Shown here: piece after piece, positions 7,662-33,810 of the stretch
How the letters are laid out: each line of letters opens with the position of its first letter
Position numbering within the stretch: position 1 is the first letter of the stretch
NCBI RefSeq assembly: GCF_001186125.1
Contig: NW_014040082.1
Span: forward strand, 1-57,177
Length of the DNA: 57,177 nucleotides
Origin: Sphaeroforma arctica JP610
Lineage: Eukaryota
Reading direction: 5' to 3'
Notes under the pieces: generated by a model
Told to the model about the DNA's origin: nothing
Databases searched by the model: none
Seen by the model: the letters and a program-made list of their open reading frames with translations, nothing else
Made by a program: the position numbers and the translations under genes

Positions 7662-10600
7662 TTATGAGCACAGCGTCATGGGCGTTATCCATGACAAAGC
7701 ACTACATGTTTCATATAGTATGTCATAGTGATCTGGTCTGTACAACAGCGTGATACTGTCCTCCGCGTCATCGGCATCTTCCCTGCCGATGTCATGCACA
7801 TTGCACTCGTCCCCGGTCGACTGATCCAAGTGCACTATCTTCAGCCTAATCTTCAAATACCGACACAGTGCGGCTATTTGTATCTGAAGGCAGAGCAGGA
7901 GAAGGGTGAACGGGTCAGAAGCACTGTGTGCCAAAGGTTGCTTACGCACAGATTGCCATGTGAGAATGGGTCACTGTTTGCTAAAGGGTGCTCACATATA
8001 TATTGTAAAGGATGCTCACGTATAGATTGTACGTCAATGATTTCTGAGTGTGCTGACACACGAAACAAGCCTTGCATATGTGTAGTTGTAACCGGTGACA
8101 TCAGACGCACATACATTATCTGCCTCTTTGCCGTAGCATTCGACTTGAGTGTTGCAAAACTTCTCAACTGTCGTCCCATCCTCCAGAAAGTGGATATACT
8201 GTAGAATACGCATCAGAAACACCTTGTGAGTAAACTGTAGAATAAGCTCGAAAAAAGCCTCGTGAACAGTCTGTAGAGTGAGCTCAAGGAAGGACTTAGT
8301 GAGTAACGGGAACGAAAATTGGTATACTACATACGTGTTGAGCCAATTGATTTCATGCAGAGCCTTGCGATTGCATCGGCAGTGGGTGCCTACTATTTGC
8401 AACTGCCAAGTGTGAAAGACTGCGCAATACACCTTTGCCTAGGTTGCACCGTAACTCTGATGTACTTTTTTATATTGCAGCGTAGCACTTCACATCAGAA
8501 TGCGAACATGATACAATAACAATGTTGTCACAGAGTATGTTACGGAAAAATCGTATCCCGGACTGCCAAGTTTAGGGCATCACACCTTTGCGACCAAAGA
8601 GGATAACTGGTACCATACAAAAATCGAGGCAATACGAGTGAGTGCTGTAGCCGGGCGCTGTGCTATGCAAAACACCTTACAGCTGAGGCGCTAGAGGATT
8701 TTGTACCCAGCCAAGAATGAACCAATATTGTACAGTACCAAACGGCTGGACTTGTGAGTATCCGGCAAATCTATATTGACACCAGTGAGATGCAAAACAG
8801 TATGATGATTGAAAAGAACTATGATCACTACGGCAGCATACTGTGTGTGTACCACTCTATAGGGCAACCCGCTGTTTGGCTTAGACGTTGAACAAGCTGC
8901 TGGTAGAAGACCAAACGGGACAGCAAAAATCGGGTATAACAGTACCCTGTCGATGGAATATTACCTAAAAACAAATCAGGGAATTCGTGCAATACAAGTC
9001 TACACAATGACAGCCCAGTAACTAAGATGTATGACTACCTAGGGCATAATAAATACAATGAATACTAACATATTGCTCTACAACTGTCAACAGAGCACCT
9101 CTCCTTGAACGCTGTATGTTATATCGTACCTCAGATGCATTGGTCCGTAACTCCACCGCGGTCATAAACCTGTAGTACAATCCTATGGCATTCGACATCT
9201 CGCTGTCGTTGAAGAGCTCATGCACCCACTGACTGTCCTTCTCCTTCACTTGCATCCAGCTCTCCAGAGTAGCCTCGTAGAAGTCTTCGAATACATACTC
9301 CTGGAAGCCTGCCTCGATCAGAGCCTGTAATCGCAGCCGTAGGCACCCAGTGGGTACCACACGTAATTGACCACATTATAGTGAGTACCACACGTAATTG
9401 ACCACAATATGAAAACCACACGCACTTGACCACATTATAGTGAGTACCACACGTAATTGACCACACTATAGTGAGTACCACACGTAATTGACCACATTAT
9501 GAGTACCACACGTACTCGACCACATTATAGTGAGTATCACACGTATTTGACCACATTATAGTGAGTATCACAGGTAATTGACCACATTATAGTGAGTATA
9601 ACACGTATTTGACCACACTATAGTGAGTGTCACACGTAATTGGCCACACTGTACTGTTGTTCAGTAGCTTTGCATTCATCTCTCCAGCTACGAGCACGCA
9701 ACATACCGGCTTGCTCTTCACTATTTGCACCTGGCAGCGTTCTTGCAGTGTCTGTGATTCTGTTTGCAGCAGTTTCTCATGCAAGGCATAGCTGACAGCT
9801 CTGTATAAACAGTTGCCATCTCTTCGACACCTTCGAAAGCTCTTGTAAGTCTTTGACAGATTCTGTGCACAAAGTAACACGCGATTAGATCAGACAATAA
9901 ATGTGGCTTAGATAGTTTATCTATTCATACACTCATAGCTACGTGCTTTATAACTGCAAGAAACCAGACAATGCACCCCTTCAAAGGACTGAAAATGTCC
10001 TCAACTATCGATCCACGTATCGGCAAAAAAGCTATTAGAGGAAGACCTTCAGTAGAACAACTTCTGAGATCATGTCTTTGAAAGTCAAACCGCCAAGAAT
10101 TGATGTCGAGAGCCAATTGATCTTCTGCACAAGTGTGGTCCAAAAAGTATGGCAAACGACAGTGTACAAGCATAGACAGCCGCGCCAACCCATATCACAG
10201 CACTAAATATATAGTGCCAAACTGTAGACACAGCGATATTTAAAGAGGAACTTGCAGATAGAATACAACAGACAACTACACACGGTATCAAAACTCTGTC
10301 AATCCCGTGACCTCACGTGTGTACTGATATCTCACGCTTATATACACACGCTTAGCTCCACTTGCAGATACACAGCGCACGTGCACATGCATATACACAT
10401 TACCACAGGGTATACCAACCTCTATTTTGTTCACGTACACAGCCGATCCATCCTCATATTCCTTCGCCAATTCTCTGATATCCATGGGCACACTCACCAT
10501 GGGGTTTAGCATCTGGATAGCCTCTAAGGTTTCTCTCTGTGAGCGATTGAGTGTATGAGGCCAAAGTAGAGTTTCGGTATCAGTTGCTTCTAAGTTTTCT

Positions 10601-15866: not shown

Positions 15867-17595
15867 TTACTTTAGAAGCGTCGTTACCAATTGGTCCCTC
15901 GCGGATTGGAAAGCCTGTGATAGCGGGAAGCAACGTGTGTGAATATATGCAGTATGATAGGAACGGATAAGGCACTTGCAGTGAGTAGACTATAGTACAC
16001 AGTTGGGAGAGGTTTAGAACTCACGACTCGCGTTTTGTTTTCGTCTGTGCTTCCAATCGTGGTGTTTCTGAGCAAATTAGCATTTTTCTATTTGCTCATA
16101 ATTACTTTTTTTCCCGCCAATTTGGGACTGTCGGATATTGTATACGACAGGATAGCACTATTTTGCAATGGATAAAACTTAAACTATGCCATGAGATTAC
16201 TAAGCTGCATAGGAATATTCATAGAAGTCTGTCATACCTGTGAGATGCTCTGTTCCGCAAGCGAGATATCTTCGCCACCACGCACAATCGCCCGGGAGGC
16301 AATGATAGATCCATCGGCTTCGAACACAATACTACAGAGGAAAAAAAATCGAGCTCAATAATAACAAAAAAAACTCTGAACCTAAAAATAAGCTTTACTG
16401 TAGCGACGGTAGCTAGTGCAGTGAGCGGCAATCACATTAGTAAGGATCACGATGTAGTATCACCTGATGCCAACTATAGCCAAAGTGAATAAACAATCAT
16501 CCTCAACTGTGAAGGGATCGCCGTATCCTTGATCAGGGTAGTTGGAAGTACAAGGTGCACATATCCTTCAAGTTATGCCTAGCTATTCGCTTTCATACTC
16601 AAAGAGATCAGATAGTCTTGCACGCACTCCAGTTCAGCACTTACCCATTGTCAACCATCTCGTCCACGACCAAGAATATGGCGTCTAAGTTGTCGAAAAC
16701 TAGCCTCTTCTCAACTTGATTTCTGCAGTGACAGATATAGCGGGACGGGTTAAACCAAACCGAGAGAACGAAAACGGTACTACATCTCTCAGGCTCAATT
16801 AGTGTGTCGAGTATAAATCACCCGCTCTGGAAGCATGTACCAAAAATACCTTAATAATATAGCCACGGCATCGTAGAATGTGGATAGTACGCTCATGAGC
16901 ATTAGCTCGTTCTCGTCAGACGATCCCACGATGTAGAAGAACAGATCAACATTGCTGCGGTACACGGTGGTCAGTCCATCGAACATCACAATCTCGGCTG
17001 AGGTCAGGTAAGAATATAGTGGCCAAAGGAAAAGTAAAAAAACAAGTCGTGATAGTCGCAAAAGGTTAAGTAAAGACAAGTGGTGAGAGTGAGAGTCGCA
17101 GACCAGACTACAGTGCAAAAGGGAAGTGTTCCAGGAGCCGGGCTTATGATTGAGGCAAACGACGAATACTCTGATGTCAAGCGAATGAGGTACATAGGCA
17201 GGTGTGCTTCTCTTAAGCAAAGCCATTTGTCTATACGGGGCAGCTGTCACTTGACTATAGGAGCACACGGGCGCAATATCCAACAAGCCTATTATAGGTG
17301 GACACAGCACTAATAAAAGTATATATAAAAGATCACAATACTTTGGGGATGGCACACTGAATTGCATCCCAGGGTAACGAAATAGCACACAGTCATAAGG
17401 CAACGCAAACAGGTGGACAGTCATTCTCAACGACATACAATGTTGTCGACACGTCTTGTTGAACAGACTCTTCTCGAAGACCAGTTGTTCTTTTGCTGTG
17501 GGGAATGTGTCGTCGTAGTACTTTGCGATGATGCGGTTCCCGTCATTGTCCATCAGGATGACGGCCTTTATCGAGTATAGGGAGAGACTCTGCAT
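15867..17595 (-). CDS. COPZ1: Coatomer subunit zeta; exons approx. 17439-17595, 16850-16997, 16645-16722, 16238-16331, 15867-15914 (start may lie in a small upstream exon)
   Basis: '[23 protein letters not shown]', 'FEKSLFNKT', '[21 protein letters not shown]', 'VDEMVDNG', C-terminus '[15 protein letters not shown]'. Exon phases are consistent. Confidence 0.93.
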
Positions 17596-18139
17596 GGATC
17601 ACAGACCCATAAACATCACACACAAAGTACGATAGACAGGGTGCAACGTCAAACAATAACAGAACGGAATTAACACAAAACATAGTCATGAGGTAACACC
17701 GAACATGTTATGTACGACAAAACACATACGACAAGTCCAACACAACAATACATACAACACATTCATGGTATTGGTTGTTTCATAGCACGCAGTAAGGGTG
17801 CAACAAAGCAAAGGGAGGAAGAGCAGATTTAAGTTAGTGACCGACATGAGCAAACAAAGTTTTCGAATATTACGCGCGAAGTGCTTCATAAGAGAGCTGC
17901 ACTTCAAAAAGTTAGTCCACACAGTTTTCTATAGAAATGTCATGGTAGAAATTTGTTCTGAAAACATAAAAGCTCTCCCAGCCAGGTCCAGCCAGTAGTT
18001 ATGTACGTACGCAAAAATGAATGACCGAGATTGAAATCTCCATAAAACTATTACAGAAAATAGACGTATCCAAATTAGTTTAACGTAGAAAACAGACAAG
18101 ATAGCACAACCAAACCGACACTCAGCGCATACACACAAA

Positions 18140-18846
<707 letters not shown>

Positions 18847-19677
18847 ATGCTGGTCTATCTTCTGGTGTCGCCTTTGATAGAGATGATAATGTCATCGGTG
18901 TTGACTTTTCGCTAAGAGTATTTTGGTGCGGTGCTGTTATTTTTAGGTGTCTGAAGACGATCTATCGTTTGCAAACTATACCTCGCTTCCGCGACGATAC
19001 ACTCGTGGGCAAACAGAAATCATAGCCGAAACATCGTGTGCACAACCATTCCATAGACAAATAGTTAAATTTTTATGAAGAAGTTAATCTTGATATATCC
19101 GACACTTGCTCTGCTAAAAATCAAAGACTATACAAATAATCAACACTCATGACTAACCATCGTGGCAAAGCTTGTTACGGCACTGTGTTCGTGTGTAACA
19201 TGATTATACGAAGCTTCTGGTAACTATGGGCTCTGAGATACGGTAGACACGGAAAACGCAAAACAAAAATCCAATACAAATAAAGTGTAAAGGTTCGGTA
19301 CAAAAGCCTTTTGGCTTTTCGCGGGCTGTGAGATTTTTTTTCTCAAAATTGCACATGAGTGATGAGCGGGCGCCGGGCGAGCGGCTCGTAGTCACAGGAT
19401 CGTTGCTCGATTATACAAATTTTAAAAAATTAAACCCAAAAAATTAACTGTCCTAAATATTGAATATTCCCGTGTGAATACATATATTTATATGTATTTA
19501 TATATGAATACGAATGCGTCTATAAAACAGTGTTGTGTAGGTGTATGTCCTGACATAACATATAGGTCTATTAAGTACAGCTCATAGGCAGAATACATAC
19601 AAGGCTTTGCGGAACTGCCCTTCAACGTCGGGCTTTATCACATTCTTCTATAGTAGAGTATCATATTATTAATCAGC

Positions 19678-20185
19678 ATGTCGTTGCAAACTAAGGGCGA
19701 CCCTACTAAACAGCACTGGGAAGATTCAGATTTCCCTATTCTGTGCCAAACATGTTTGGGAGATAACCCATATATGCGCATGACTAAAGAGAAACACGGC
19801 AAAGAGTGTAAAATATGCACGAGACCCTTCACTGTGTTTAGATGGTGTCCTGGGCGTGGCATGCGATTCAAGAAGACCGAAGTGTGCCAGACGTGTGCGA
19901 AGGTTAAGAACGTTTGTCAAACGTGTATATTCGATCTGCAATATGGCCTGCCTGTGCAAGTTAGAGATCAAGCCTTGGGGATTGTCGATAATGTACCGAA
20001 GTCAGCGGTCAATAAGGAATACTACGCACAGAACATGGAAGCACAGGTATGTATGCATGTCCGAAACAGTCAAAACCGGCTCCAAATATTACTTTTTGCT
20101 TGTATGAGGTTTAAAATCCTCCGATCTGTGTTCACGTCACCACAAAGTATCGTTTACGAAGACATATACACATACATCCGCGCAA

Positions 20186-20230
<45 letters not shown>

Positions 20231-20584
20231 CGACATACACACACTATTATATATATACACACACATATATATATTATATATATATTATATATATNNNNNN
20301 NNNNNNNNNNNNNNNNNNNNNNNNNNNNNNNNNNNNNNNNNNNNNNNNNNNNNNNNNNNNNNNNNNNNNNNNNNNNNNNNNNNNNNNNNNNNNNNNNNNN
20401 NNNNNNNNNNNNNNNNNNNNNNNNNNNNNNNNNNNNNNNNNNNNNNNNNNNNNNNNNNNNNNNNNNNNNNNNNNNNNNNNNNNNNNNNNNNNNNNNNNNN
20501 NNNNNNNNNNNNNNNNNNNNNNNNNNNNNNNNNNNNNNNNNNNNNNNNNNNNNNNNNNNNNNNNNNNNNNNNNNNNNNNNTTTA

Positions 20585-20669
<85 letters not shown>

Positions 20670-23223
20670 TGTGTGTGTGTGTATATATATTCATATATTT
20701 ATATATTTATAAATACGAATACTATGTATATCGCGGACATCGTATGTATATAAAAATCACACAGTCAAATTGAATTAGAGTACGTGGTACATAGGCATTT
20801 ATAATATATACTTGTACTTCTCTAATATTGAGTGTTTAGCTATGTATTTATATACATGTTGTATTAAACCATATTCACACAATTTTTAGTATATAGTTTG
20901 AATGCTTCTTTATAGTCGGACTCTATGCAATCGCGAGTGTGTGAGCGGGAACGTCTACCATTGATACTTCGCTCGTCTGTATGTAAAAATTAAATTACAA
21001 ATGCAGCATTTTATGATTATTGTCCTCAGCAACGGAGACACAGTTGATGCTTGGCAATAGTACTATCCTCTATAGAAATTTGTTTTATATCCTGTCTGTA
21101 TGCATTCCTTACTTTTATAGTCCGTTAACATAACTATCCACCGTACCCTCTCAGATGGCAGTTGCTGAACCTGGTGCGTTAGCTATCGATATGTCGGGCA
21201 GCGGAACTCTGTCTGTGGGCGGAGTTGGTGGTGCAGTTGGAGGTGTGGGCGGAGGCGGTGGAGGCGCACCAGGGGGAGTAGGGGTTGGTGGGAAGGTAAA
21301 TAACGCGTACCTGAAAACTCTGGCCAGGACCGGTCCATACTACAAGCGGAACAGGGCGCACATATGCTCGTTCTGGGTGAAGGGAAACTGTAATCGTGGC
21401 GAAGAGTGTCCGTACAGACACGAGATGCCCACCGACCCGAATAACCCACTGGCCAAACAGAATATCAAGGATCGTTATTATGGAGTCAATGATCCCGTTG
21501 CGGACAAGGTATGTTGTAGTAGGCGACAAAATCCACGTCCTAATTTTGATTTTTCTTTCGTCAGCAAACTGACAATGAGTGGCAGCTGGTGTATACGTAC
21601 GGCACGGTTTAGCTGTGTTTCGTTGAACATGTGATGTACATTTGTGTTTATATACACTTGAATAACATGTGCAGATTATCATATACAGTGCTATAAATTG
21701 CAACAAGACCATCCCCCGTTCATCTATTCAATGTGCCACGCTTAACCAGTGATTTGATTGCTACACACTTTCGCAGATTATCGAACGGGCTGCCAGCCGA
21801 CCCAGGTTAGAACCGCCCGCAGACAAGTCGGTGATGACACTGTACTTGGGAAATATAGACCCGGCCGTCACGGAACAGGACATCCGCGACGTGTTTTACC
21901 AGTAAGTGGCATATCTAATTTCAGTGTTTGATTTGCTTGGCCGAGTATTGAGATGTTCATAACTAGCCGTTCTCACTATTTTTCGTCAGTTTGACGATTG
22001 AGCCGTGGCTAATGTGCACAACACCACTAAGTATTGTATTTGGCTGTGCTATATCCTGCTTTCAATGATTGCTGTAAATGCACTGAAGATCACCTCATGC
22101 AAACAAGATTTATTATAGGAAGGGCATGCTTCTTTACAACTAATTCGTTGACATTCTTACACGTCTCCTGCTGATACGTTCACCGTCTTCCCTTTGAACA
22201 GGCACGGAACCATCACAAACATCACACTTGTGTCGAAACAAGGCTGTGCGTTTCTGGAGTACTCCGCTCGGTCGGAGGCTGAGAGGGCCGCGGAGAAGAG
22301 CTACAACAGCGTGTTGCTAAAAGGAAAGAAGATCAAGATCTTGTGGGGCAAGTAAGTTGATGTGGCACATCTCGTTTATTGCGAAGTGTAAACATTTTTG
22401 TTTGTTTGTGGTGTGGGTGCAAGCGGTGAGTGGCGGGGATTACATAACCAGCAGAGACGTCATGCCGTCACGTTTTCTGTTGCGAGAGTTATGCGTGACA
22501 CATCTCATTGCTTAGTGAGACTACGATTCTGGTGGGGGTTTATTGTTTGTCGAGGTGACTACTTGTCTTTGTCTCCTAGGGACTACAACCAAAGTATATG
22601 TATCCGTCTGTGCCGAAAATAAGAGCCAATTTCCACTAGTTCTTGATTGGGTGCTGTAGGGTTTGGATTCGTGACTTACGCTGCATAATTTTCTTGTCTG
22701 ATTCAGGAGCAAATCACAACAGTCACAAAACAACGCTTCAGCGAATATCAATCTGCAGCCTGTTCCTGGATTGCCACCGAGCGCAAAGACCGGTCCTGGC
22801 CCTGGCCCCCCAGGTGTAAGGCCACCCCAACAAAAAGGACTCCAAGGCATCCACTACCCATCACAAGTAAGTTTGTCAGGTTTTTTGTTGCTGCTTGAGG
22901 CTTGGCTTGTATTGTTGCCTGTTGTGCGTGCACGGACACGGCTGCAACAAATAAAATATGCACAGCGATGTTGTGGTGGTTTGTATACATATAGCTATTA
23001 TGCGAGGGTTAAGCGTTTCCAGGTTTACTTCCTATCGATGTTTGTACGTGCTCACTCTCATATTTGCAAGATAATTTAAATAGTCCTACAATGCTGGAAT
23101 TCCATGCTATAGAAATTATGCACCTGTTATTTCATTTGTATGGGCCAGCCAGTATATCTCAACGACTATTTGCCCAATTCCTTGCAGGATCCGACTCGTA
23201 TGGGTACCTCCGGGAAGAGGTGA
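19678..23223 (+). CDS. RBM22: Pre-mRNA splicing factor RBM22/Slt11; exons approx. 19678-20046, 21155-21508, 21777-21901, 22202-22351, 22707-22866, 23188-23223
   Basis: '[22 protein letters not shown]', '[16 protein letters not shown]', CCCH finger '[21 protein letters not shown]', RRM ('TLYLGNI', 'GCAFLEY'), C-terminus 'IHYPSQDPTRMG'. Exon phases are consistent. Confidence 0.96.
20186..20690. repeat. (TA)n-rich microsatellite around an assembly gap in RBM22 intron 1
   Basis: Direct reading; N run ~20295-20580. Confidence 0.95.
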
Positions 23224-23483: not shown

Positions 23484-23528
23484 CAATAGGGTCGGACAAC
23501 AAATAAATAGGCATTTTGAAGCCGGAAC
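23484..23528 (+). repeat. Left terminal inverted repeat
   Basis: CAATAGGGTCGGACAACAAATAAATAGGCATTTTGAAGCCGGAAC. Confidence 0.88.
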
Positions 23529-23689
23529 GTATCTACCCGAATTCAGTGAAACCCTAAATCCTGCACACATCTCATTGTACTTTTGACTATAAATCATATA
23601 AACAAACACTATTTGGTTCACACACGCGCGTAATATCGGCGTACAAATTAGCATACTTTACTGTGTAGTAGACCATTCGATAAACAACA

Positions 23690-25660
23690 ATGAGTGAAAG
23701 TAGTACAAACGTTCGTCGCCGAATCAGTGATGAGTTCAAAAGTCCGGCTTCGGTGCGTAGAGTTTGTTTATGTTCAAAGGATCTATGCAACAAAATCGAT
23801 GCAACAACATCGATGCAACATCGATGCATAAAACTTGTAGATCATTACTTCAATCTACCCAAGCGATCCAGAGCGCCTGATAAACGTCGACGTTGGTTAA
23901 AAAGAGTTCTGCCCAAAGATAAAAATACTTTCAAAAGTCTATACAACTCAGACACACGATATTCCATCAATGCTAAGCACTTTTTATTTCAATCGTTGAT
24001 CTGGAAGCAGAGTAGACTTTTCCCTGGACCTACGGCAGAACCATATGAAGAGCTACATCGGCACAATTTGAATCAACTATCGCGTAGACCTAACTTTCAT
24101 CGCGCACGAGTACAGTGTGTATGTACACAAAGTGATGATGTATGTGGTGAAGATCTAATATATGTAGGACTGAGTTTACCGTTGAAAGCAGATGTCAGAG
24201 AGAAGTGGCTAACAATACTAGTGAGAGATACAACACAGAGACAAAAGATAAAGAAATTGCCTGTAGTTAAGGAGGGAGAGAAATGTAAAAGACAACGCTC
24301 GAAAGTAGCGCATCACCACTTCCGTACAGACCAGCTTAATACAACGGCAAATGGCCGTATACGTGTTAAGCCAGGTGAGCTACCAACGTTCTATCCAATC
24401 CTAGAGGATGTTTCAGATGAAGCCAAGAGACCAACTCCAGATGATAGACGCGATATTACAAGTATAAGAACGATAGTGGCATCGGGTACAACGAATCTGC
24501 CCGAGAAGAATGTTAAGAAGAATGTTAAGAATGTTCAAGTACGTAAGCATGTTGTAGACATAGTCACCCATATATTAAAAACTCATATAGAGTGTGCACA
24601 ATACACATCACCCGTAACACCCGAGGCGATATCAATCAAATCACAGAGCTATATCAAACTGCTAGAAAACGACAATGCGCTGTGCAACACAGTAACAGGC
24701 GAACCGTCAATGGCGTGTGTGAAGAAGCTGTATGATCTACTCAATGCGGTGGCATCTTTCGACGTGATGCGCCAATACTCACCTCGCGTGCGTACATTAT
24801 TGGTTGAAGTAAATTTCCCTGAGGAGAGTGAGGAAGGGGAAAGTGGGAAGATAATAGAATCGGTCATGAAAGAATACGCATAGCATAGAAATTTATTTAA
24901 ACAGTCTCTATTTGAGCAGTTTGTTCTTTGGCTTGTGTACTATGTTTAATACGCTACATACTGTATATAAATATAGCAGACGCACGGACGCATTTTGGTG
25001 TTAGCAAAACTTCAGCGAAAAACAATTATGTAACGTGGACGTATGCGATTGCAACCATTATAAGAAAAGCAAGCCTATACCAAGCAACAAACAAAACGCA
25101 GCCAAAATGATGGAGGATTTGTGAGAACGACTTGGTCTACTGCCTGGATGTTCTTCATGGTTTTCAGATTGTACTGAGAAACCAATGGAGGACCCTTGCT
25201 ATATTGCCCCAGCACTAAATGCTTTTTTATTTTCACAGTGTAACAAAGAAGTAATATCTAAACATTGCACCATTGCTGGTGCCAATACAAACATAGCGGT
25301 TGTCACTGCACCCTATCCAGTGTCGGAAACTGACAATCCATATGTGCCAATGAGCGTTTTGGTGCGAGAAAACGTTGCGACTGTTATCCCTGACGGATCG
25401 TCAAGAACTTGAAGTAAATAGAATGCATGTAACATGTCCAAGAAAGAAGATGGCGGGTCAGATCGTACTTGACTCAGAAACAACACGACAAGACAAACAA
25501 CCTGCAAAATAAAGATTACATATAGAAAGGAACAACGAGGAATTGCATAACTACCATGCTTGGGACGGCGGAAGACTTACTACATCTGATATTGATTTAC
25601 ACAAGGAGGAATCCGAATGTATACGAAGTTTGACGAACCTAAAGCCGCGTATGTAACACC
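23690..25660 (+). pseudogene. Disrupted ISL2EU/Harbinger-type transposase (2x THAP-like, HTH, DDE_Tnp_4-like)
   Basis: ORF 23690-24883 has two C..C/P/W/HF THAP-like units, 'RVKPGELPTF' (AVPTIF-box-like) and 'TGEPS..LYDLL'. Downstream fragments read 'LFEQFVLWLVY', 'DARTHFGVSKTSAKNNYVTW' (HTH) and 'DCTEKPMEDP...LFSQ..K...VTAPYP..TD' (25167-25412; first catalytic Asp region). Stops and frameshifts intervene, and the 3' end is approximate. Confidence 0.75.
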
Positions 25661-28077
25661 TATATATAACTGGTGGTTGTCAAAAAAGGAGCGTAGAACT
25701 AAAACTAATAAACGCAGTATTCCACAAGGGGCTACTACTTTCCTTTAGATAACAAAAAGACTATGCTCTCACAGTTGTAAGCCAGAGATATACATTAAAT
25801 AAAAAATTATTCACAAACACCTATCGGTTTCTTTCGCTCTCCTCCCTATCTCTGAAGGTAACCACATCAAGTTTCAATCCTAGTTTAGGATTTGTGCCTC
25901 TCGCTTCTGTACGCTAGAAGTTTTCCAAGTGCCTCACTATCTTCATTGTAATCTAGTTTAGAGATCGGGATTATATTATTTATTTCAAAAAAGATAAGTT
26001 ACAAGGTATGTACATACTGTATGGCTCTCATAGCCGTTGTAGTGGTTCGGGAAAGATCGATGGGAAGAAGTGGTCAGTAAATTCCCGTTTGAAGCTTGGG
26101 TCAAGTGAGTCGACGATGGAGGATATGCGCTGGGTCAATTCAGGCTGGTGCTGACAAAAAAATGGACACCATCGAGTGTGCCATTTATTCGCTTGCTGAC
26201 CTACTAAGTAGCGTACCCACCTCTGTGGTACGGATCGGGTCTGTGCCGTGTAGTGCCGTGGAATAGGTTAGTGCAGAGTACAAAATACCAAGTAGGACCA
26301 GGTTATCCGTCATAATTCGGTCGAGGAGCGAAGTTGGGGATGAGCCAATGCCGCACCAGACCACGGATGCACTCGGTATGTGCTGGCTGGCCTGGATCGG
26401 AAGTATCATAGGCTGAACCAACAAGCGCGCGATGACTTGGTTTGTACCGAAATTTGGAAGTAGTACTTCAGCAGCGTAATTAGCCGGGGTACGCGGAACA
26501 TCTGTTGATGTGTTAGAGACGGGTGAGGGTACGGTGGTTGTTCTACATGCTGGAGAAAGGATCCAAGGTGTTCGTGGAGGGTACAGATACCGTGGAAGTC
26601 ATGGCGCTCCTGTAATTGCTGGAGGAGGTCAGGGCCAATGAGCGGCAGTTTCGGGCCTACCAGGATGCGTCGGATCAATTGTTGGATGCAGATAATGTGG
26701 CTGGTTTTAATGACAGAGACAGCCGTCAGTGCGGTAGTCGAGCAATGTAAACATAGCACAGAGCCGGATTGGTGTAGACTCGAAGCAGCGGTTGAAGCTG
26801 TCGTGTCTGGCTTTGTCTCGATTTGAGGTTGGCGGTTTACCCATGGCCAGTTGGTAGTAGTATTGGCGCCGGGCCGTTGCCGCGATCTCCTTGTTGGACC
26901 AGCGTTTTGTTGAGTTCTTTCAATGTCGTCACAGTGTTGGCGGAGGGTTACATGGTCGGGTGTACGCCAGCCTGTGATTTTGTGCACAGTTCTCAGGTGG
27001 GCATAGATACTGTACGGGAAACGCAGTGATGGTTTGTCGTGGGCCCTGGCGGGTTGCGTCAGAGGGGTGAGTGGATTTGTACTAGTCATTGAGTCGAGTT
27101 GTATTCCCAGGCAACCTCCGAGGTAGTCCGCGAATGAGGGAGCAGGCCACAAAGGTGGAGTAGGGTTGTTTGATGTTTGGGAAACCTAGGGTATTTAGTG
27201 CCCGTGATGATGGCTGCTGCTTGGATGAGTTCTGAGTCATAGCGCTCGAACAGGGGGTCCAGCGCATTCTTCCATATAGGCGGAGCCCAGGTAATATGCT
27301 GCCAGTCGGTTGCGGGGGTGTCGCCAGCTGAAGCCATGGAAGCCATAAGCGAGGAAAGAGGCGATACCCAGGGACAATGCAGCAACCAGGGATTCAATAT
27401 GTCTGGCGAGGTTGATTCCTGGTATTCCGTGAGAGAGTGGGAATCCCAGATATTTGGAGCGTTTCGGCTTGTCATGTGTGGGCTCCATCTTCAGGGGGAG
27501 GTAACGTGTGTTCCATGGTGCGTCTGCGAGCGTCGACGTGATAAGCTCACCATTTATACGGAGGGTTGGCGCCGCGTGTCGCAAAGTCGGTAGATCGTAT
27601 TCGGGGTTTGATGACACCCTGTTCGAGGCCAGATTTGCGTCCCCACGCATCAATGTCGTCTAAGAAGGGCTGGAGAGAAACCGGATGCGGGGCTTGGATC
27701 CGTGTATCGTCAACAAATAAATAAGAGTGAAGGAGCTTGGGCCGAAATTGTGCTAGCGTGACAGCTAAGGAATCCATGTAGACAATAAATAGCTGGGGGT
27801 CGATAATTGAGCCTTGTAATATGCCATTCGTTCTATGGAATAGAGCAGAGAGCGTGCCGCGGTATGTCACTCGGATAAGGACCCTCTCAAATAGAGCGCG
27901 GAGGCAGTTGATCCAGTTTCCTGGCAATACAGCGTGGCGCACGTGTACCCACAGGCGTGGGAGAGCAACCTTGTCGTATGCTTTGGTACTGTCCAGACAC
28001 ACGTCGTTCCACTCCTCTTCCGACTGTGTTTCAGATTCCATGGCGGCGAGTGCTTGGGTATTGTAGGATTTGGTCTA

Positions 28078-28826
28078 TTAAAGCGATACTAATGCCTTGG
28101 AATAAATAAACGCGTAGGTAAGTTCTAAGTATCGTGTAAATATCAAAGTAAATAAACGAAATGAGACATTTGGTAAAGTTAGGTATGCCTCGTGAAAACA
28201 GCAATACTCTGAGGGATTGTGAGACTGAGTATATAATCCTCTCAGTACTGTTTCCGCCGAAGGGATTTTATTTAGTGTTTCGTTGTCGCTCTATTAGAAA
28301 CTATGGTATGTTTCACTGGGGCGAATCCGAGAGACTCATAAAATCCTATCTTTAGAACAAATAAAGAAAAAATAAAAATACTCTTGATGTCCTTAGTTAT
28401 TGTCTTATCCAATAACTTGCCACTATCAAGAATTACCGACTTAGCCTTCATCAGACTGGCACATCTGGTTCGCTGGTCGGAGGATCAACTAGGTAACGTC
28501 AATAGTCCCTAGAAACCTATATTCCGTTGAGCCATCTCGCTACCGAAGTTTTCAGATATAAATAAAGTTGGAAAGTAAATAAAGTTATATTAATAGAACT
28601 AGACTAACTCTTTATGTTTGGTATTTTACTGAGGCCTTTTAATGGTCTTGTCCAAATATCTGATATGTAAAATGGAAAAGGTATTAATTAAAATCATTAA
28701 AAACCATTTTAGGAAACTTAAGTTCCTCGTACTATTAAGAGTACATTTAGGAAACTTAAGTTCCTCGTACTATTAAAAGTATGTTTATAATTTACGTACT
28801 GCTTAAGAGTACGTTTATAACATAGA
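28078..28826. mobile_element. AT-rich ~750-bp non-coding insertion interrupting the LINE RT (solo LTR or non-autonomous element)
   Basis: Abrupt composition change between RT motifs 'QAGF' and 'D..KAYD'. Flanked by GTCTA at 28073-28077 and 28827-28831. The minus strand starts TGTTATAAAC (from 28822) and ends ...CTTTAATA, LTR-like. Internal tandem TAGGAAACTTAAGTTCCTCGTACTATTAA. Confidence 0.55.
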
Positions 28827-29226
28827 GTCTAATGTGGAGGCCCAGCATATTACAGTATGACAGGAGCATCGTGATTTGAAGCCAGCCTGGGTAGCATGGG
28901 TAGCAGAGCCGGGGTGGCTCGTAATCAGCGTAAGAAAGCACTTCTCAAAGATACGCGTCCAAATATCTGATATGTAAACTGGAAATGATATCAATTAATA
29001 AAACCATTAAATCCCATTTTAGGAAACTCAAGTTTCTCGTACTATTAAGATTACGTTAGGAAACTTACGTACTGCTTAAGAGCACGTTTATAACATAGAG
29101 TCTAATGTGGAGGCCCGGCTTATTACAGTATGACAGGAGCATCGTGATTTGAAGTCATCTTGGGTAGCATGGGTAGCAGAGCCTGGGTGGCTCGTAATCA
29201 GCTTAAGAAAGCACTTCTCAAAGATG
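28651..29226. repeat. Diverged tandem duplication (~270-300 bp) spanning the insertion/RT junction
   Basis: TCCAAATATCTGATATGTAAA...CATAGAGTCTAATGTGGAGGCCC...GCACTTCTCAAAGAT occurs at ~28651-28951 and ~28958-29226. Confidence 0.9.
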
Positions 29227-31614
29227 TGTCTGACTATTTGCGTAAGCGTGATAGGGCGGAAGTCGGGATATCTGCATCGGCTTTCTATGGGTGCGCTGTC
29301 AGGAGGCTGCAGTTCAGGGCTACAGGGAAGGTACTCATCTTCAGTAGCTCAGTGAATGCTTCGGCAAGGAGTCTAATCAGTGGGCTATTGGCGTCGGGGC
29401 ATCCTAGTGTCCTACGTTTGGTGGAGCGCTCCACCGTGGCCTTCAGGAGGAGGATGTGGATCCCATCGGGGCCAGGTCTCTTATTGGGATAGCGTAGTAT
29501 CGCCCCCATTACATCGTTGGGGCGTATGGCGAAAGTTACATCGGGCGAGGGTTCGGCATCCGGTGGAACCACGTACGGGTTTGTAGAGCTGAGTAGGTCT
29601 TCAAATGTGTCATCGGAGACATTCGTTGGTATGCAATATATTTGAGCATTTGAGTATTGCTTTGGGCAGTCAAATGTGGGCGGAACGAGTGGTTTGGCAG
29701 CAGCTGAACCCAGGGTATATTTAAGTCATAGTAGAACCCCCTGACGATTTGTGGGTTAGCGGTATAGCGCCAGATACGGTCGAGGATCTGTAGCAGCCCT
29801 TCCACTGGTTCGTACAAAGAGAGATACGACCGTAGTAGGTTCTGATGCGCTCGGATTTTGGCTTGGAATAGTCGCGCGCGGGTTTTGTTGCGTAGGTAAT
29901 ATAGTCGATGGCGGTATCGGTTATATCCATGAGAGGGAAGGAGTTAGTCCGGAGGCGGCGGTATTGTTGGCATTTGTTGGGGCCGATGGTATTAATTCGT
30001 TGGAAGTATCTGGAGATCGAGTCCAAAGGTGTGGTCACCACAGATACTGTAGTTCGTCAGCTTATAGATCTAGAGGGAGGCGGGCGTGGTAGGCCGATGA
30101 TACGCATGTCCTGTACCAGTTGGGCCACCAACATTGAGGTAGTCCAAGGGCCACGTATTACGCAGGGTAGTTTCGATTGTGATCATACGTGGTCCATGAT
30201 TCGTAGATGCGTGGCCATATTTCCGGGCTTTGAAGTTGAAGTCTCCCCAAACGACATCTGGTTGGAAATTACCAATCTCGGGGGGATTCATGTATCGCCT
30301 GACGTCTTCTTTGGTAAATGATCTGAGTGGAAGGTAGAACACGGCCGCCATATGAACACCAAAGTACATAAAGAACATCGCGTACGGCGAGGAGTGTACA
30401 AATTGAAATCTCAATGGGTGGTGTTTGGAAAAAAAATCACACCACAGTTTGAAGGGTGAAAGATATTATGCCGTGTAGTGTGATGTAGAATATGGTAGTG
30501 TGTGTTCGAGCGTATATGATTAGGGAATTTGGTGTTATGCCAGGTTTCAACCACAAACATAACATCAATCTGACTTAAAATCGATATAGCGTTCAAACAC
30601 TTATCTGTATGTGCTGCGTTGTCCATATTGAGTCCTTATGGGTTGAAGAGCGTCATCCTCATTTAACTGGGCTCTCTTCCTTATCGATGTCAGCCATTTC
30701 TATACCATTGCCTGTCGTCGAAGAGTCTCTCGTGAAAGGTTGAAGCTGCGTATTGGTAACCATCGTGTCGGTTGATTGTGTCAGGAAGACCGTTGGTACG
30801 TGAAATCGTCCGGATTGCGCACGCGCTGGTTCTTTAGCGTTTGTCGGGATTCGCGGGATAGGTGAGAAGAGGGTTGTATCATGTTTTGCTTGGTAAGTCT
30901 TCTGGAGATGGTCCACGGTAGATCGGAGGATGTCTGCGTTAGTGGAATTGACAAGGGGAATCAGTAGTGCATCCATGCTGCGGGCAAGAATTTTTGACAC
31001 TCGTTAATGTGTGCAGCGGGTCTCCCGCTTGGGGCGGAGATAGTGGATTAAGACTGCTTTCGTAGCGTCGGTATGTTGTTGGGAGCGGGGGTCGATGTTT
31101 TCATCAAGTTGCCATTTCCACGTAAGTGCTGCATGTCGTTTCACCTGGGCGACAGCGTCGCTAGGAATACAGACGGACGAAATTGGTGGAGCTCCACGGC
31201 GATTTAGTTGAAATAGTTTAGACAGAAGATACCAAAGAAAGTGGTGGCGTTTGAGGAGTGGTTGGACATGCCAGTATTTTTCAAATACTGATTGGGATGG
31301 GGGCTTGCCGTTAGGAAAAATTGCCCGGAAGAAGAGCCATACCGGAGTTGTCACCATTTCGTGACGAGTTTTGTCCGGCATCGGGCGGCCCACCACTTTC
31401 GTCAAAAGGTGTGCGGGTACTGGCGGCTGCGGTAGGAGCTGAGAAGCTGGTGGGGTCGGGCGTTTAATAGGGCTCGGTTTTGCGGGTTTGTCCACTTTTG
31501 AGTGGTAGCTGGGAGGCTCACTGCTGCTATTGGGCGCCGGTGACCGCGGTCTTTTTGCTGGCGGAGCAGGCGGGCTTGTGGAGCCAAATCGGAAAGTGTT
31601 GGGTGTGCCTTCAG

Positions 31615-33604
31615 TTATAAGTGCACGGGTTTGTTAGAGATAAGTCTATCCAACCTTGGATCAAATTTGTGAAGCACGCAAACAGTGTAATAATCTCTGC
31701 TCTCACCCATGAAGGGTTCTACAACGTCTATCGCGGGTCTGTGTGAAACTATTGTTGCCAATACACCCCTGTCTCGCCAGGTATTATCAGCATCAGTGCT
31801 GCCATTGCTTCCTATCTCCACTATGCGTTCAAGTGTTGCTTGTATATGAATACACCCATTGACATAGTAGCAGGGTCTGTATTCACCTCTAGTTTCTTTG
31901 GGAATAAAGCGCAAAGCAACTTGTATTTCACGACATACGCGCCGAGCAGGATTGTTTATCACTGCGCGAGTTCATTCTAATATCGCAAATACGGTCGCGA
32001 GGGTATGTTGATATATCTTCCTGTTTCAGTTTATAAGTATATGCTGATCACATCGTCGGCTTGCTACGTTGCGCCCATCAACACTGAGGCAAATCTAGTA
32101 CGCTTTTGTGTATCTTGTCTTGTTGAGTGCTATGTATCCTCGCGGTCAAAATAGTCCTCGACAAGATGTTTATCAATCACAACTTTAATGACACTGTCTT
32201 GTGAGCATGGCTCCAACTTTACAGTTTTCAATTCCTCCTCGTATACTGGTTTATGCTTGGCTAACAATTTAACAGAATCCTTTACGTACAGTCGATCTCA
32301 CTCTAGACGTTGAATCAGCGGTTACATATTCTTTTAAATCAGAAACTCTGGTATTACTACCAGAAATACTCAAACCATGAGCCGAACAGTATGTACGCAG
32401 TTGAACTCCATTCAGCATAGAAATATCAATCGGCGGCTCATCCTTCTCGAAGTTTGTTACACGCAATACACCTTTCCACTCGGCGTCTCTCGCAAAACAT
32501 GACGTATTGTCCACATCGATAGCGCCAAATAGCCCAGCCGCACAATACTCGTAACTCAGCTTGTTTACAATCACCCGATTACACCAGGGCGCGGGTTTGC
32601 CTGGCCCAAAGGCATGATAATAAGTGAGATATACAAATTGTTTGACATCTTGACGCTGAGTATCGAAATACGATACGAACAGACGCGACACTGGATTGTA
32701 AACGGGTTGACAATAACACATATATGCTGCTTGCCTGACTTCTAGTCTGGCCACCTTCAATTTCTTCTCATCAGATGCAAATTGGGCTTTCAAAATATCG
32801 TCTACTGTACACAACCCTCTTTTCAGATGCTTCAGCAAAGTCGCCACTCCTGTTCGATGGATGTCTATAGTCGGTCTTAAACAGCATCGCACACATAAAC
32901 AATATATGATCAAAACCATACACGGTGATATAGTACAATTTTTTTCTTCTGCATTTGATGCTGAGTCGAGATCAGGACAATGTACTTTTCAAGTTTAGAA
33001 CGTACTTCACTTCTCCTAAAGATTCGCCCATATCGTCTCAGTAAATGCTTGTCAACAATCAGATTGTCTCCGTAGTGAACTATATAATCACTATCATTAC
33101 AGATAATATATTCTACAAGACCTTCCCTCTGAAGATACACAAGATGATGCTCAGCCTCTTGCGGTGCAACTAAAAAGTTGACGTTACTTGCAGCTAACAT
33201 ATCCATCACACGATTCGCTGCTTTTAGATTACGTGCACCAACTGCCTTTTTACATTGCATGTACAAACTATCATGATCGTGATTTTCACCCTCAAGCATG
33301 CACAACACACTATCAAGTGCGGTCTGTCGATCTGACGTACGAGATGTGTTGGCTAACTTACCTGCCACACGCTGACCGTCAAAAACAGGTAAGATTGTAT
33401 TGGAATTTCACTCCTTAATTGACTGTAGTGTTCTCCATACATCTATATCAAAGCGCTTGTAACAGTCTACTTCGTCCTCCGCTAGTTTAAAAACTTGTGG
33501 ATAATTGCGAACATATCACAACCAATGACACTATTCCCTATAGCTGTGTAGTCTCCATATACAAATATACCCCCTAGGACAGGTAGCAACCCGTCAGTAC
33601 CCAT
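31615..33604 (-). pseudogene. Disrupted transposon accessory gene: EXO1/XPG/FEN1-family PIN nuclease followed by SAP-like and SWIM-like motifs
   Basis: From ATG 33604: 'MGTDGLLPVL', 'GNSVIGCDMFAIIHKF', 'ILPVFDGQRVAGK', 'FLVAPQEAEHHLVYL', 'IICNDSDYIV', 'TDY' plus frameshifted 'TGVATLLKHLK', 'QPVYNP'. Then 'LNGVQLRTYCSAHGLSISG..RVSDL' (SAP-like) and 'PCYYVNGCIHIQATL' (SWIM-like). Several stops and frameshifts. Confidence 0.8.
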
Positions 33605-33765
33605 AACTACGCTCTCTGTTCTTGTATCTCTAAGTAAAGTACTACAAGTGTAATGACGAGAGGCGCGTATACGCGTGCAAATACATATGTTGTTAAATGA
33701 ATTACAGTAAAAACTACCATAGCATGTGTATTGGGTTTAGGGGGTTTCAGATTTTATGTTTGCGA

Positions 33766-33810
33766 GTTCCGGCTTCAAAATGCCTATATTTCTGTTGTCC
33801 GACCATATTG
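33766..33810 (-). repeat. Right terminal inverted repeat
   Basis: Reverse complement is CAATATGGTCGGACAACAGAAATATAGGCATTTTGAAGCCGGAAC, 4 mismatches versus the left TIR. Weaker similarity continues inward (GAAACCC..TAAA). Confidence 0.88.

What the first reader, a model, noticed from the sequence alone, without database searches (positions are those of the whole stretch)
23484..33810. ISL2EU/Harbinger-like DNA transposon whose partner gene is an EXO1/XPG-family nuclease instead of YqaJ
Seen: 45-bp TIRs bracket a + strand THAP-HTH-'DCTE' transposase remnant and a convergent - strand gene with EXO1-like PIN motifs in the right order (MG..GLLP, D, VFDG, APxEA, DSD, TDY, VYNP), followed by SAP-like and SWIM-like motifs. 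Established: ISL2EU elements pair a THAP/DDE transposase with an opposite-strand gene carrying a YqaJ/lambda-type exonuclease, while XPG domains are known from the unrelated Academ transposons. Inference: this may be an undescribed two-gene transposon lineage in which one 5'->3' exonuclease fold was replaced by another (possibly a captured host EXO1), implying a conserved need for 5' end resection in transposition or donor-site repair.
Basis: partly seen in the sequence, partly recalled or inferred. Interest (0 to 1): 0.9.

Follow-up and report, generated by a model that had tools for sequence, protein, structure and literature searches.

The report
Transposon carrying its own EXO1-like nuclease
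This is a dead copy of a two-gene jumping element of the ISL2EU type whose helper gene carries an EXO1-like DNA-trimming enzyme where known relatives carry a different one or none, which suggests that the helper is a DNA-binding scaffold with an exchangeable nuclease that likely trims DNA ends during jumping.

Summary
Observation confirmed, with corrections. The TIRs are 41 bp (23488-23528, 33766-33806), with an AT duplication in an A|AT|T target, as described for ISL2EU. The decayed + strand gene is a THAP-HTH-DDE transposase that groups inside ISL2EU. The convergent gene is XPG/EXO1-like + SAP + SWIM-like, with no YqaJ signal. DNA assemblies hold a second copy, about 87% identical, whose listed nuclease changes favour third codon positions (19 of 31). 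An independent GC-rich metagenome contig (L054) has the same gene pair; its transposase is sister to this one (96/96) and its nuclease shares motifs with it. So this is a lineage, not a chance passenger. I found the pairing in none of 9 paper searches; Repbase/Dfam could not be checked, and earlier notes of this scan report it in algae.

The parts
23486..23487 (.). left target-site duplication AT (preceded by A)
   Evidence: sequence; same A-AT|AG.. ends in L134-L136; A|AT|T target of ISL2EU in PMC4482050
23488..23528 (+). left TIR, 41 bp, 4 mismatches to the right TIR; weaker inverted similarity continues about 200 bp inward
23690..25656 (+). decayed ISL2EU-type transposase: open to 24883 (THAP 24173-24391), then HTH about 24890-25060, DCTE 25167-25178, E-motif RLHIERNN 25513-25536; stops and frameshifts
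   Evidence: tree
25885..25965 (-). 3' tail of the nuclease gene beyond the LINE: 26 codons in frame with the part at 31634 and above; the original stop is uncertain (about 25810-25885)
25958..25965 (.). LINE target-site duplication, left copy (8 bp; twin at 31634-31641)
25966..31633 (-). nested decayed LINE (ORF1-like region, endonuclease, reverse transcriptase); depth hundreds of times that of the transposon in four runs
   Evidence: RVT_1 E 1.9e-11, Exo_endo_phos_2 E 0.21; depth table
28060..29130 (.). AT-rich insert inside the LINE reverse transcriptase, with a partial duplication 28789-28952 / 29062-29225; limits approximate
31634..33604 (-). decayed partner gene: XPG-N (33604-about 33350), XPG-I (33185-33045), H3TH TDY (32875-32867), EXO1-type QPVYNP (about 32700), SAP (32427-32356), SWIM-like YRPC..CIH (31884-31837)
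33766..33806 (-). right TIR
   Evidence: a further end with another flank
33807..33808 (.). right target-site duplication AT (followed by T)

Best explanation
This is a decayed 4.6-kb ISL2EU-type cut-and-paste transposon, split by a later LINE insertion, whose second gene encodes an EXO1-like nuclease fused to SAP and SWIM-like domains that likely trims 5' DNA ends made during transposition. Shown: ends, target duplication, both genes, a second copy, and an independent relative with the same pair. Inferred: the SAP-SWIM part is the conserved core of the ISL2EU second protein, binding DNA and probably the transposase; a nuclease is an add-on that comes as C-terminal YqaJ, N-terminal EXO1-like, or not at all. 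Most likely job of the add-on (untested, about 40% among the jobs considered): resecting the broken donor ends 5' to 3' after excision, so that repair copies the element back from the sister chromatid and the copy number rises. This would help spread without being required for the jump itself.
For: Ends and AT duplication fit ISL2EU; 4,643 bp without the LINE against about 4,840 bp in PMC4482050. Transposase profile score 40.1 vs shuffle max 23; of 28 single transposases, L054 scores best on the window DNA (39.5, next 36.5; Harbinger-like 16.5; archaeal IS 16-24). Tree of 29 rows: window + L054 96/96, inside ISL2EU 99/97; each alone stays inside ISL2EU (95/100 and 94/97) and does not join the other long branches. 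L054 partner: XPG_N E 0.0097, XPG_I E 1e-5; 54% identity to the window over 41 aa, E 4e-8; SWIM-like block matches. Acidic residues matching human EXO1 D78, E150, D152 (as E), D171, D173 and K85 are kept; D30 and D225 equivalents read by eye. Second copy: 19 of the 31 listed coding changes are at third positions (P 0.0013), 13 of 31 lie in codons with an unchanged residue (P 0.04). Three partner states: SAP-SWIM-YqaJ in L081, SAP-SWIM only in L134-L136, XPG-SAP-SWIM here and in L054.
Against: Only 1 of 120 metagenome loci had an XPG partner against 27 with YqaJ, and that contig has a 550-bp inversion and a hairpin at its start, so it may be partly artefactual. Both XPG rows are very long branches, the window row was threaded on an ISL2EU profile, and L054's lead is small. 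No single contig bridges the second copy's nuclease to its TIR (loose ends at 33300 and 33609). The 31 changes are those listed, of about 136. Homology of the SWIM module to that of YqaJ partners is motif-level only: the profile did not score above shuffles on the window or on L054; L054's SAP has no Pfam hit and does not match the window's. H3TH and the EXO1-type helix did not align significantly to L054. Nuclease-free copies L135/L136 are 99.9% identical at different sites. Nothing here tests activity.
Confidence: 0.78

Rival explanations
1. Same element, other job: the nuclease cuts the non-transferred (5') strand or clips 5' flaps after strand transfer, as TnsA does beside TnsB in Tn7 (recalled), and so is part of the cutting reaction itself.
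For: FEN1/EXO1 enzymes cut 5' flaps and gaps (established); YqaJ and TnsA share the PD-(D/E)xK fold (recalled); PMC10045372 links the accessory enzyme of Academ lineages to their duplication length.
Against: Nuclease-free, YqaJ-type and EXO1-type elements all show AT-flanked ends, so the accessory nuclease does not seem to set the cut; nuclease-free copies have moved (L135/L136), unless helped in trans.
Confidence: 0.25
2. The EXO1-like gene is a host gene captured once by this element, a passenger without a role in transposition.
For: Best solved relative is EXO1; no homologue found in three protein searches of window pieces; the second copy's linkage is not bridged.
Against: Fusion to SAP and SWIM-like parts as in other ISL2EU partners; the same pair in a 66%-GC contig with a sister transposase; shared EAE, NDSDY and K-x5-R spacing with L054 and not with human EXO1; third-position excess between copies.
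Confidence: 0.07
3. The architecture is real but already catalogued in Repbase/Dfam under ISL2EU or Harbinger family names of algae or protists.
For: Earlier notes of this scan see it in much-studied genomes (Ostreococcus, diatoms), which Repbase covers (recalled).
Against: PMC4482050, PMC4122938 and PMC9179366 name only YqaJ as the ISL2EU partner; 'ISL2EU'+'XPG' finds 0 papers.
Confidence: 0.25

Closest known systems
ISL2EU group of the PHIS superfamily (Han et al. 2014 PMC4122938, passages; Han et al. 2015 PMC4482050, first quarter of the text)
   Same: THAP-HTH-DDE transposase with DCTE, convergent second gene, TIRs, AT duplication in A|AT|T, length about 4.6 kb; SAP and SWIM in the partner (seen in L081).
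   Different: No YqaJ; an EXO1-like XPG domain at the N-terminus of the partner; TIR starts AG rather than GG as I place it; long-branched transposase with TDN and IE..N.E motifs.
Kolobok lineages with exchangeable accessory enzymes (Kojima and Bao 2022, PMC9587614, passages)
   Same: One transposase superfamily whose lineages carry different accessory nucleases (DEDDh, lambda-exonuclease-like, His-Me finger).
   Different: Unrelated transposase, TTAA duplication; no XPG-type enzyme named in the passages read.
AcademX transposons (nuclease and 3-4 bp duplication per PMC10045372, passage; the XPG label is recalled, the AcademH paper was not held)
   Same: A DNA transposon that encodes a nuclease, recalled as XPG-type.
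   Different: Different transposase, no THAP/DCTE, longer duplication; not compared by sequence here.
Human exonuclease 1 (PDB 3qea and others)
   Same: Best PDB match for the window and for L054; most catalytic acids kept.
   Different: About 44% identity over the best 41 aa against 54% to L054; E for D152, NDSDY for EDSDL; followed by SAP and SWIM-like parts.

Membership tests
ISL2EU | DDE transposase with THAP and HTH that groups with ISL2EU | tested here: met
   long branch, few outgroups (3 archaeal IS, 1 Harbinger-like), no Spy or Pangu rows
ISL2EU | AT target duplication within A|AT|T | tested here: met
   both window ends and one more end; same pattern in L134-L136; a TA reading cannot be excluded without an empty site
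ISL2EU | TIRs of 6-259 bp, usually starting GG | tested here: inconclusive
   41-bp TIR; starts AG/AT followed by GG as placed here; L134-L136 and L033 also start with A after AT
ISL2EU | second ORF with YqaJ exonuclease | tested here: not met
   YqaJ profile of 13 sequences gives no signal on either strand; under 500 nt remain between SWIM and the transposase stop once the LINE is removed. Hence a variant, not a typical member. Sensitivity on a decayed YqaJ was not simulated
PIF/Harbinger | Myb/SANT partner and 3-bp TWA duplication | tested here: not met
   no Myb hit; Harbinger-like L146 scores at shuffle level
Academ (AcademX) | Academ-type transposase, 3-4 bp duplication | tested here: inconclusive
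   duplication is 2 bp and the transposase is DDE_Tnp_4-like; no Academ sequence was on hand for a tree
FEN1/EXO1/XPG nucleases | XPG-N and XPG-I regions with catalytic acids, helical arch K/R, H3TH | tested here: met
   XPG_I above cut-off; residues against EXO1; XPG-N and H3TH in the window by motif only, XPG_N E 0.0097 in L054
EXO1 subfamily | groups with EXO1 rather than FEN1/GEN1/XPG in a tree | not testable with these tools
   only ranks of PDB hits: EXO1 7e-5, Rad2 0.048, FEN1 0.057; no eukaryotic EXO1 sequences could be fetched
FEN1/EXO1/XPG nucleases | 5' exonuclease or flap activity | not testable with these tools
   needs an assay on an intact member

The most novel reading that the evidence does not exclude
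The second ISL2EU protein is an old SAP-SWIM scaffold that has recruited two unrelated 5' nucleases at opposite ends (YqaJ, EXO1-like). The EXO1-type lineage spans distant microbial eukaryotes and uses its own resection enzyme to push the host into copying the element back after excision: a cut-and-paste transposon that controls donor-site repair, with nuclease-free families borrowing the enzyme in trans.
Probability: 0.3. Interest if true: 0.8.

Novelty: new variant of a known kind. Interest (0 to 1): 0.55.

Why it matters
The role of the second protein of ISL2EU elements is untested in the papers I read. Three natural states of one scaffold (no nuclease, YqaJ, EXO1-like) give a ready comparison for asking what an accessory nuclease does for a cut-and-paste transposon: cut, trim or steer repair. 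It also warns annotators that some 'EXO1' genes in microbial eukaryotes are transposon genes. This copy itself is dead, Kolobok and Academ give precedent for swapped accessory enzymes, and the scan has noted the pairing before, which limits the surprise.

Tried and rejected
No whole genome is held. Protein searches were blank: XPG piece, longer proteins; THAP frame; C-terminal half against 1.84 billion representatives; L054 XPG part; weak evidence, as decayed pieces share few words. Scans for relatives of the nuclease found nothing in viral contigs or metagenome contigs. A motif scan of the collections for the nuclease itself was not run, so XPG-partnered relatives are undercounted. The transposase motif gave 12 loci in viral contigs, none a transposase, and none by alignment. 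Single-sequence structure models were unusable (pLDDT 37 and 35), so no fold search was made. The protein atlas did not answer or did not hold the sequences. No RNA holder listed. One search was swamped by LINE copies, so left-end flanks and a LINE-free joint were not shown. The SWIM-module profile was not significant on the window. XPG_I search of G001/G002 found only an archaeal FEN1. The supplement of PMC12730594 gave no text hit for ISL2EU; the AcademH paper is not held; supplements of Han et al. 2015 were not read and may list partner domains. Rejected: a host repair gene beside an unrelated transposon (it lies inside the TIRs and has a second copy); YqaJ hidden beyond the LINE.
Full report
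Setting. The window is gene-dense eukaryotic DNA; I did not identify the organism, and no whole genome is held. The element lies between an RBM22-like gene on the left and the 3' end of a midasin-like gene on the right.

Ends. Its outer four bases are target DNA: both ends read C-A-AT and then the element. That is the A|AT|T site with an AT duplication that Han et al. 2015 give for ISL2EU (PMC4482050, first quarter of the text), and three intact ISL2EU elements fetched here end the same way (L134-L136). The TIR proper is 41 bp with 4 mismatches, about 1e-8 by chance. A further end in the sequencing runs matches to 33809 and then has another flank. A TA reading of the duplication is not excluded without an empty site.

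A nested LINE. Between 25966 and 31633 lies a decayed LINE (RVT_1 E 1.9e-11) with an 8-bp duplication, at hundreds of times the depth of the transposon. With it and one duplicate removed, the second gene's frame runs on for 26 codons and the element measures 4,643 bp, near the 4,840 bp average of ISL2EU.

Transposase. THAP scores E 3.6e-4. The rest is broken, and Pfam does not see it. Their profile, aligned across frameshifts, scores 40.1 on 24928-25653 against 15.5 +/- 2.1, maximum 23, in 100 shuffles. In a tree of 29 rows (20 of the 53 that were 235 aa or longer, 4 more ISL2EU, L054, the window, 3 archaeal IS and 1 Harbinger-like row) the window falls inside ISL2EU at 99/97, and stays there without L054 in a 14-row tree (95/100). 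The window row was threaded on the ISL2EU profile, which favours this result; unthreaded pairwise scores point the same way. No Spy, Pangu or Academ rows were on hand.

Partner gene. XPG_I passes Pfam's cut-off, SAP does not. Human EXO1 is the best solved relative (E 7e-5; Rad2 0.048; FEN1 0.057), with D78, K85, E150, D171 and D173 kept and E at D152. A YqaJ profile that finds 27 of the 120 loci gives nothing in the window, and under 500 nt are left between the SWIM-like motif and the transposase stop.

Second copy. Contigs of DNA runs show two versions of the nuclease gene, one identical to the window and one about 87% identical, a second right subterminal piece and a second transposase. The second version runs on for 255 nt or more past the point where the LINE sits here, in one single-depth contig, so it likely lacks the LINE (inference). 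It is broken too, and no contig bridges its nuclease to its TIR. Of the 31 coding changes listed (about 136 exist), 19 are at third positions (P 0.0013) and 13 lie in codons with an unchanged residue (P 0.04): the gene was likely under selection while the two lines diverged.

Independent relative. One of the 120 loci, L054 (66% GC against 42% here), has a DCTE transposase and a convergent XPG gene with SAP-like and SWIM-like parts and no YqaJ. Its XPG-I core is 54% identical to the window's over 41 aa (E 4e-8); by my count human EXO1 reaches 18 of the same 41. The SWIM-like block matches (0 of 100 shuffles), the N-terminus weakly (1 of 100), H3TH and SAP not at all (regions chosen by me). Its transposase is the best single match to the window (39.5, next 36.5) and its sister in the tree (96/96). 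Both are long branches, but neither joins the other long rows when alone. L054 has a 550-bp inversion at a 6-bp inverted repeat and a hairpin at its start, so it may be partly artefactual.

Three partner states. L081 has SAP, SWIM and YqaJ. L134-L136 are 3.2-3.35-kb elements with near-perfect TIRs, open transposases, and a partner with SAP (E 7.6e-4) and a SWIM module (E about 1e-14 to my profile) but no YqaJ hit; L135 and L136 are 99.9% identical at different sites. The window and L054 have XPG, SAP and SWIM-like parts. The window's SAP matches those of L081 and L135 weakly (1 and 2 of 100 shuffles); its SWIM module does not score against the YqaJ-type profile. A common scaffold is therefore likely, not shown. 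The nuclease-free copies argue against a strict need for a nuclease in cis, though help in trans is possible.

Mechanism. Shown: anatomy and kinship. Inferred: SAP binds DNA, SWIM the transposase, and the EXO1-like domain trims 5' ends. I favour resection of the donor break, which would steer repair to the sister chromatid and restore the element, because it explains why a nuclease is gained twice yet can be missing and why the ends look alike in all three states. Second-strand cutting or flap removal is the main rival. Neither is tested.

What is known. Three papers name only YqaJ as the ISL2EU partner (PMC4482050; PMC4122938 and PMC9179366, passages). Kolobok lineages carry different accessory nucleases (PMC9587614, passages), and AcademX a nuclease (PMC10045372, passage; its XPG label is recalled). 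Nine searches (listings, plus passages of PMC12730594 and PMC5963040) showed no ISL2EU or Harbinger element with an XPG-type gene. Repbase, Dfam and most subscription journals were out of reach. Earlier AI notes of this scan report the pairing in Ostreococcus and diatoms; I could not check those genomes, and they are not counted as evidence.

Verdict. A real, dead member of an EXO1-partnered variant of ISL2EU. Interest 0.55.

Noticed in passing
L134:5034-8384, L135:4957-8167, L136:4950-8174: Intact ISL2EU elements whose partner gene has SAP and SWIM but no detected nuclease; two copies 99.9% identical. A third partner state that I did not see described.
   Followed up: partly
L134-L138, L140-L148 (G001, G002): Two prokaryotic genome bins of the genome collection hold eukaryote-type THAP/ISL2EU and Harbinger-like transposons on large contigs, likely host DNA in the bins.
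   Followed up: no
window 23488-23690 and 33604-33806: Both start codons lie 202 nt from their element ends, within weak inverted similarity; L081 and L053 also have inverted repeats next to both start codons, as if both genes share one promoter design.
   Followed up: partly
window 28060-29130: AT-rich insert inside the LINE reverse transcriptase with the highest depth of the whole stretch and a partial duplication of LINE sequence; type not determined.
   Followed up: no
window 23690-24100: A cysteine/histidine-rich stretch before the THAP hit looks like a second, degenerate THAP-like unit; no Pfam hit. L081 and L053 transposases also show a doubled N-terminal unit by eye.
   Followed up: partly
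L054:2109-2660: Inversion at a 6-bp inverted repeat that fuses the transposase C-terminus in frame to the nuclease gene; real or an amplification artefact.
   Followed up: partly
window 9349-9680: Minisatellite of 28-31-bp units, about 10 copies.
   Followed up: no
window 16795-17598 (-), 19657-22900 (+), 34739-55963 (-): Host genes: clathrin-adaptor small chain/zeta-COP-like, RBM22-like, and a midasin-like gene with a 3,799-aa open frame.
   Followed up: no
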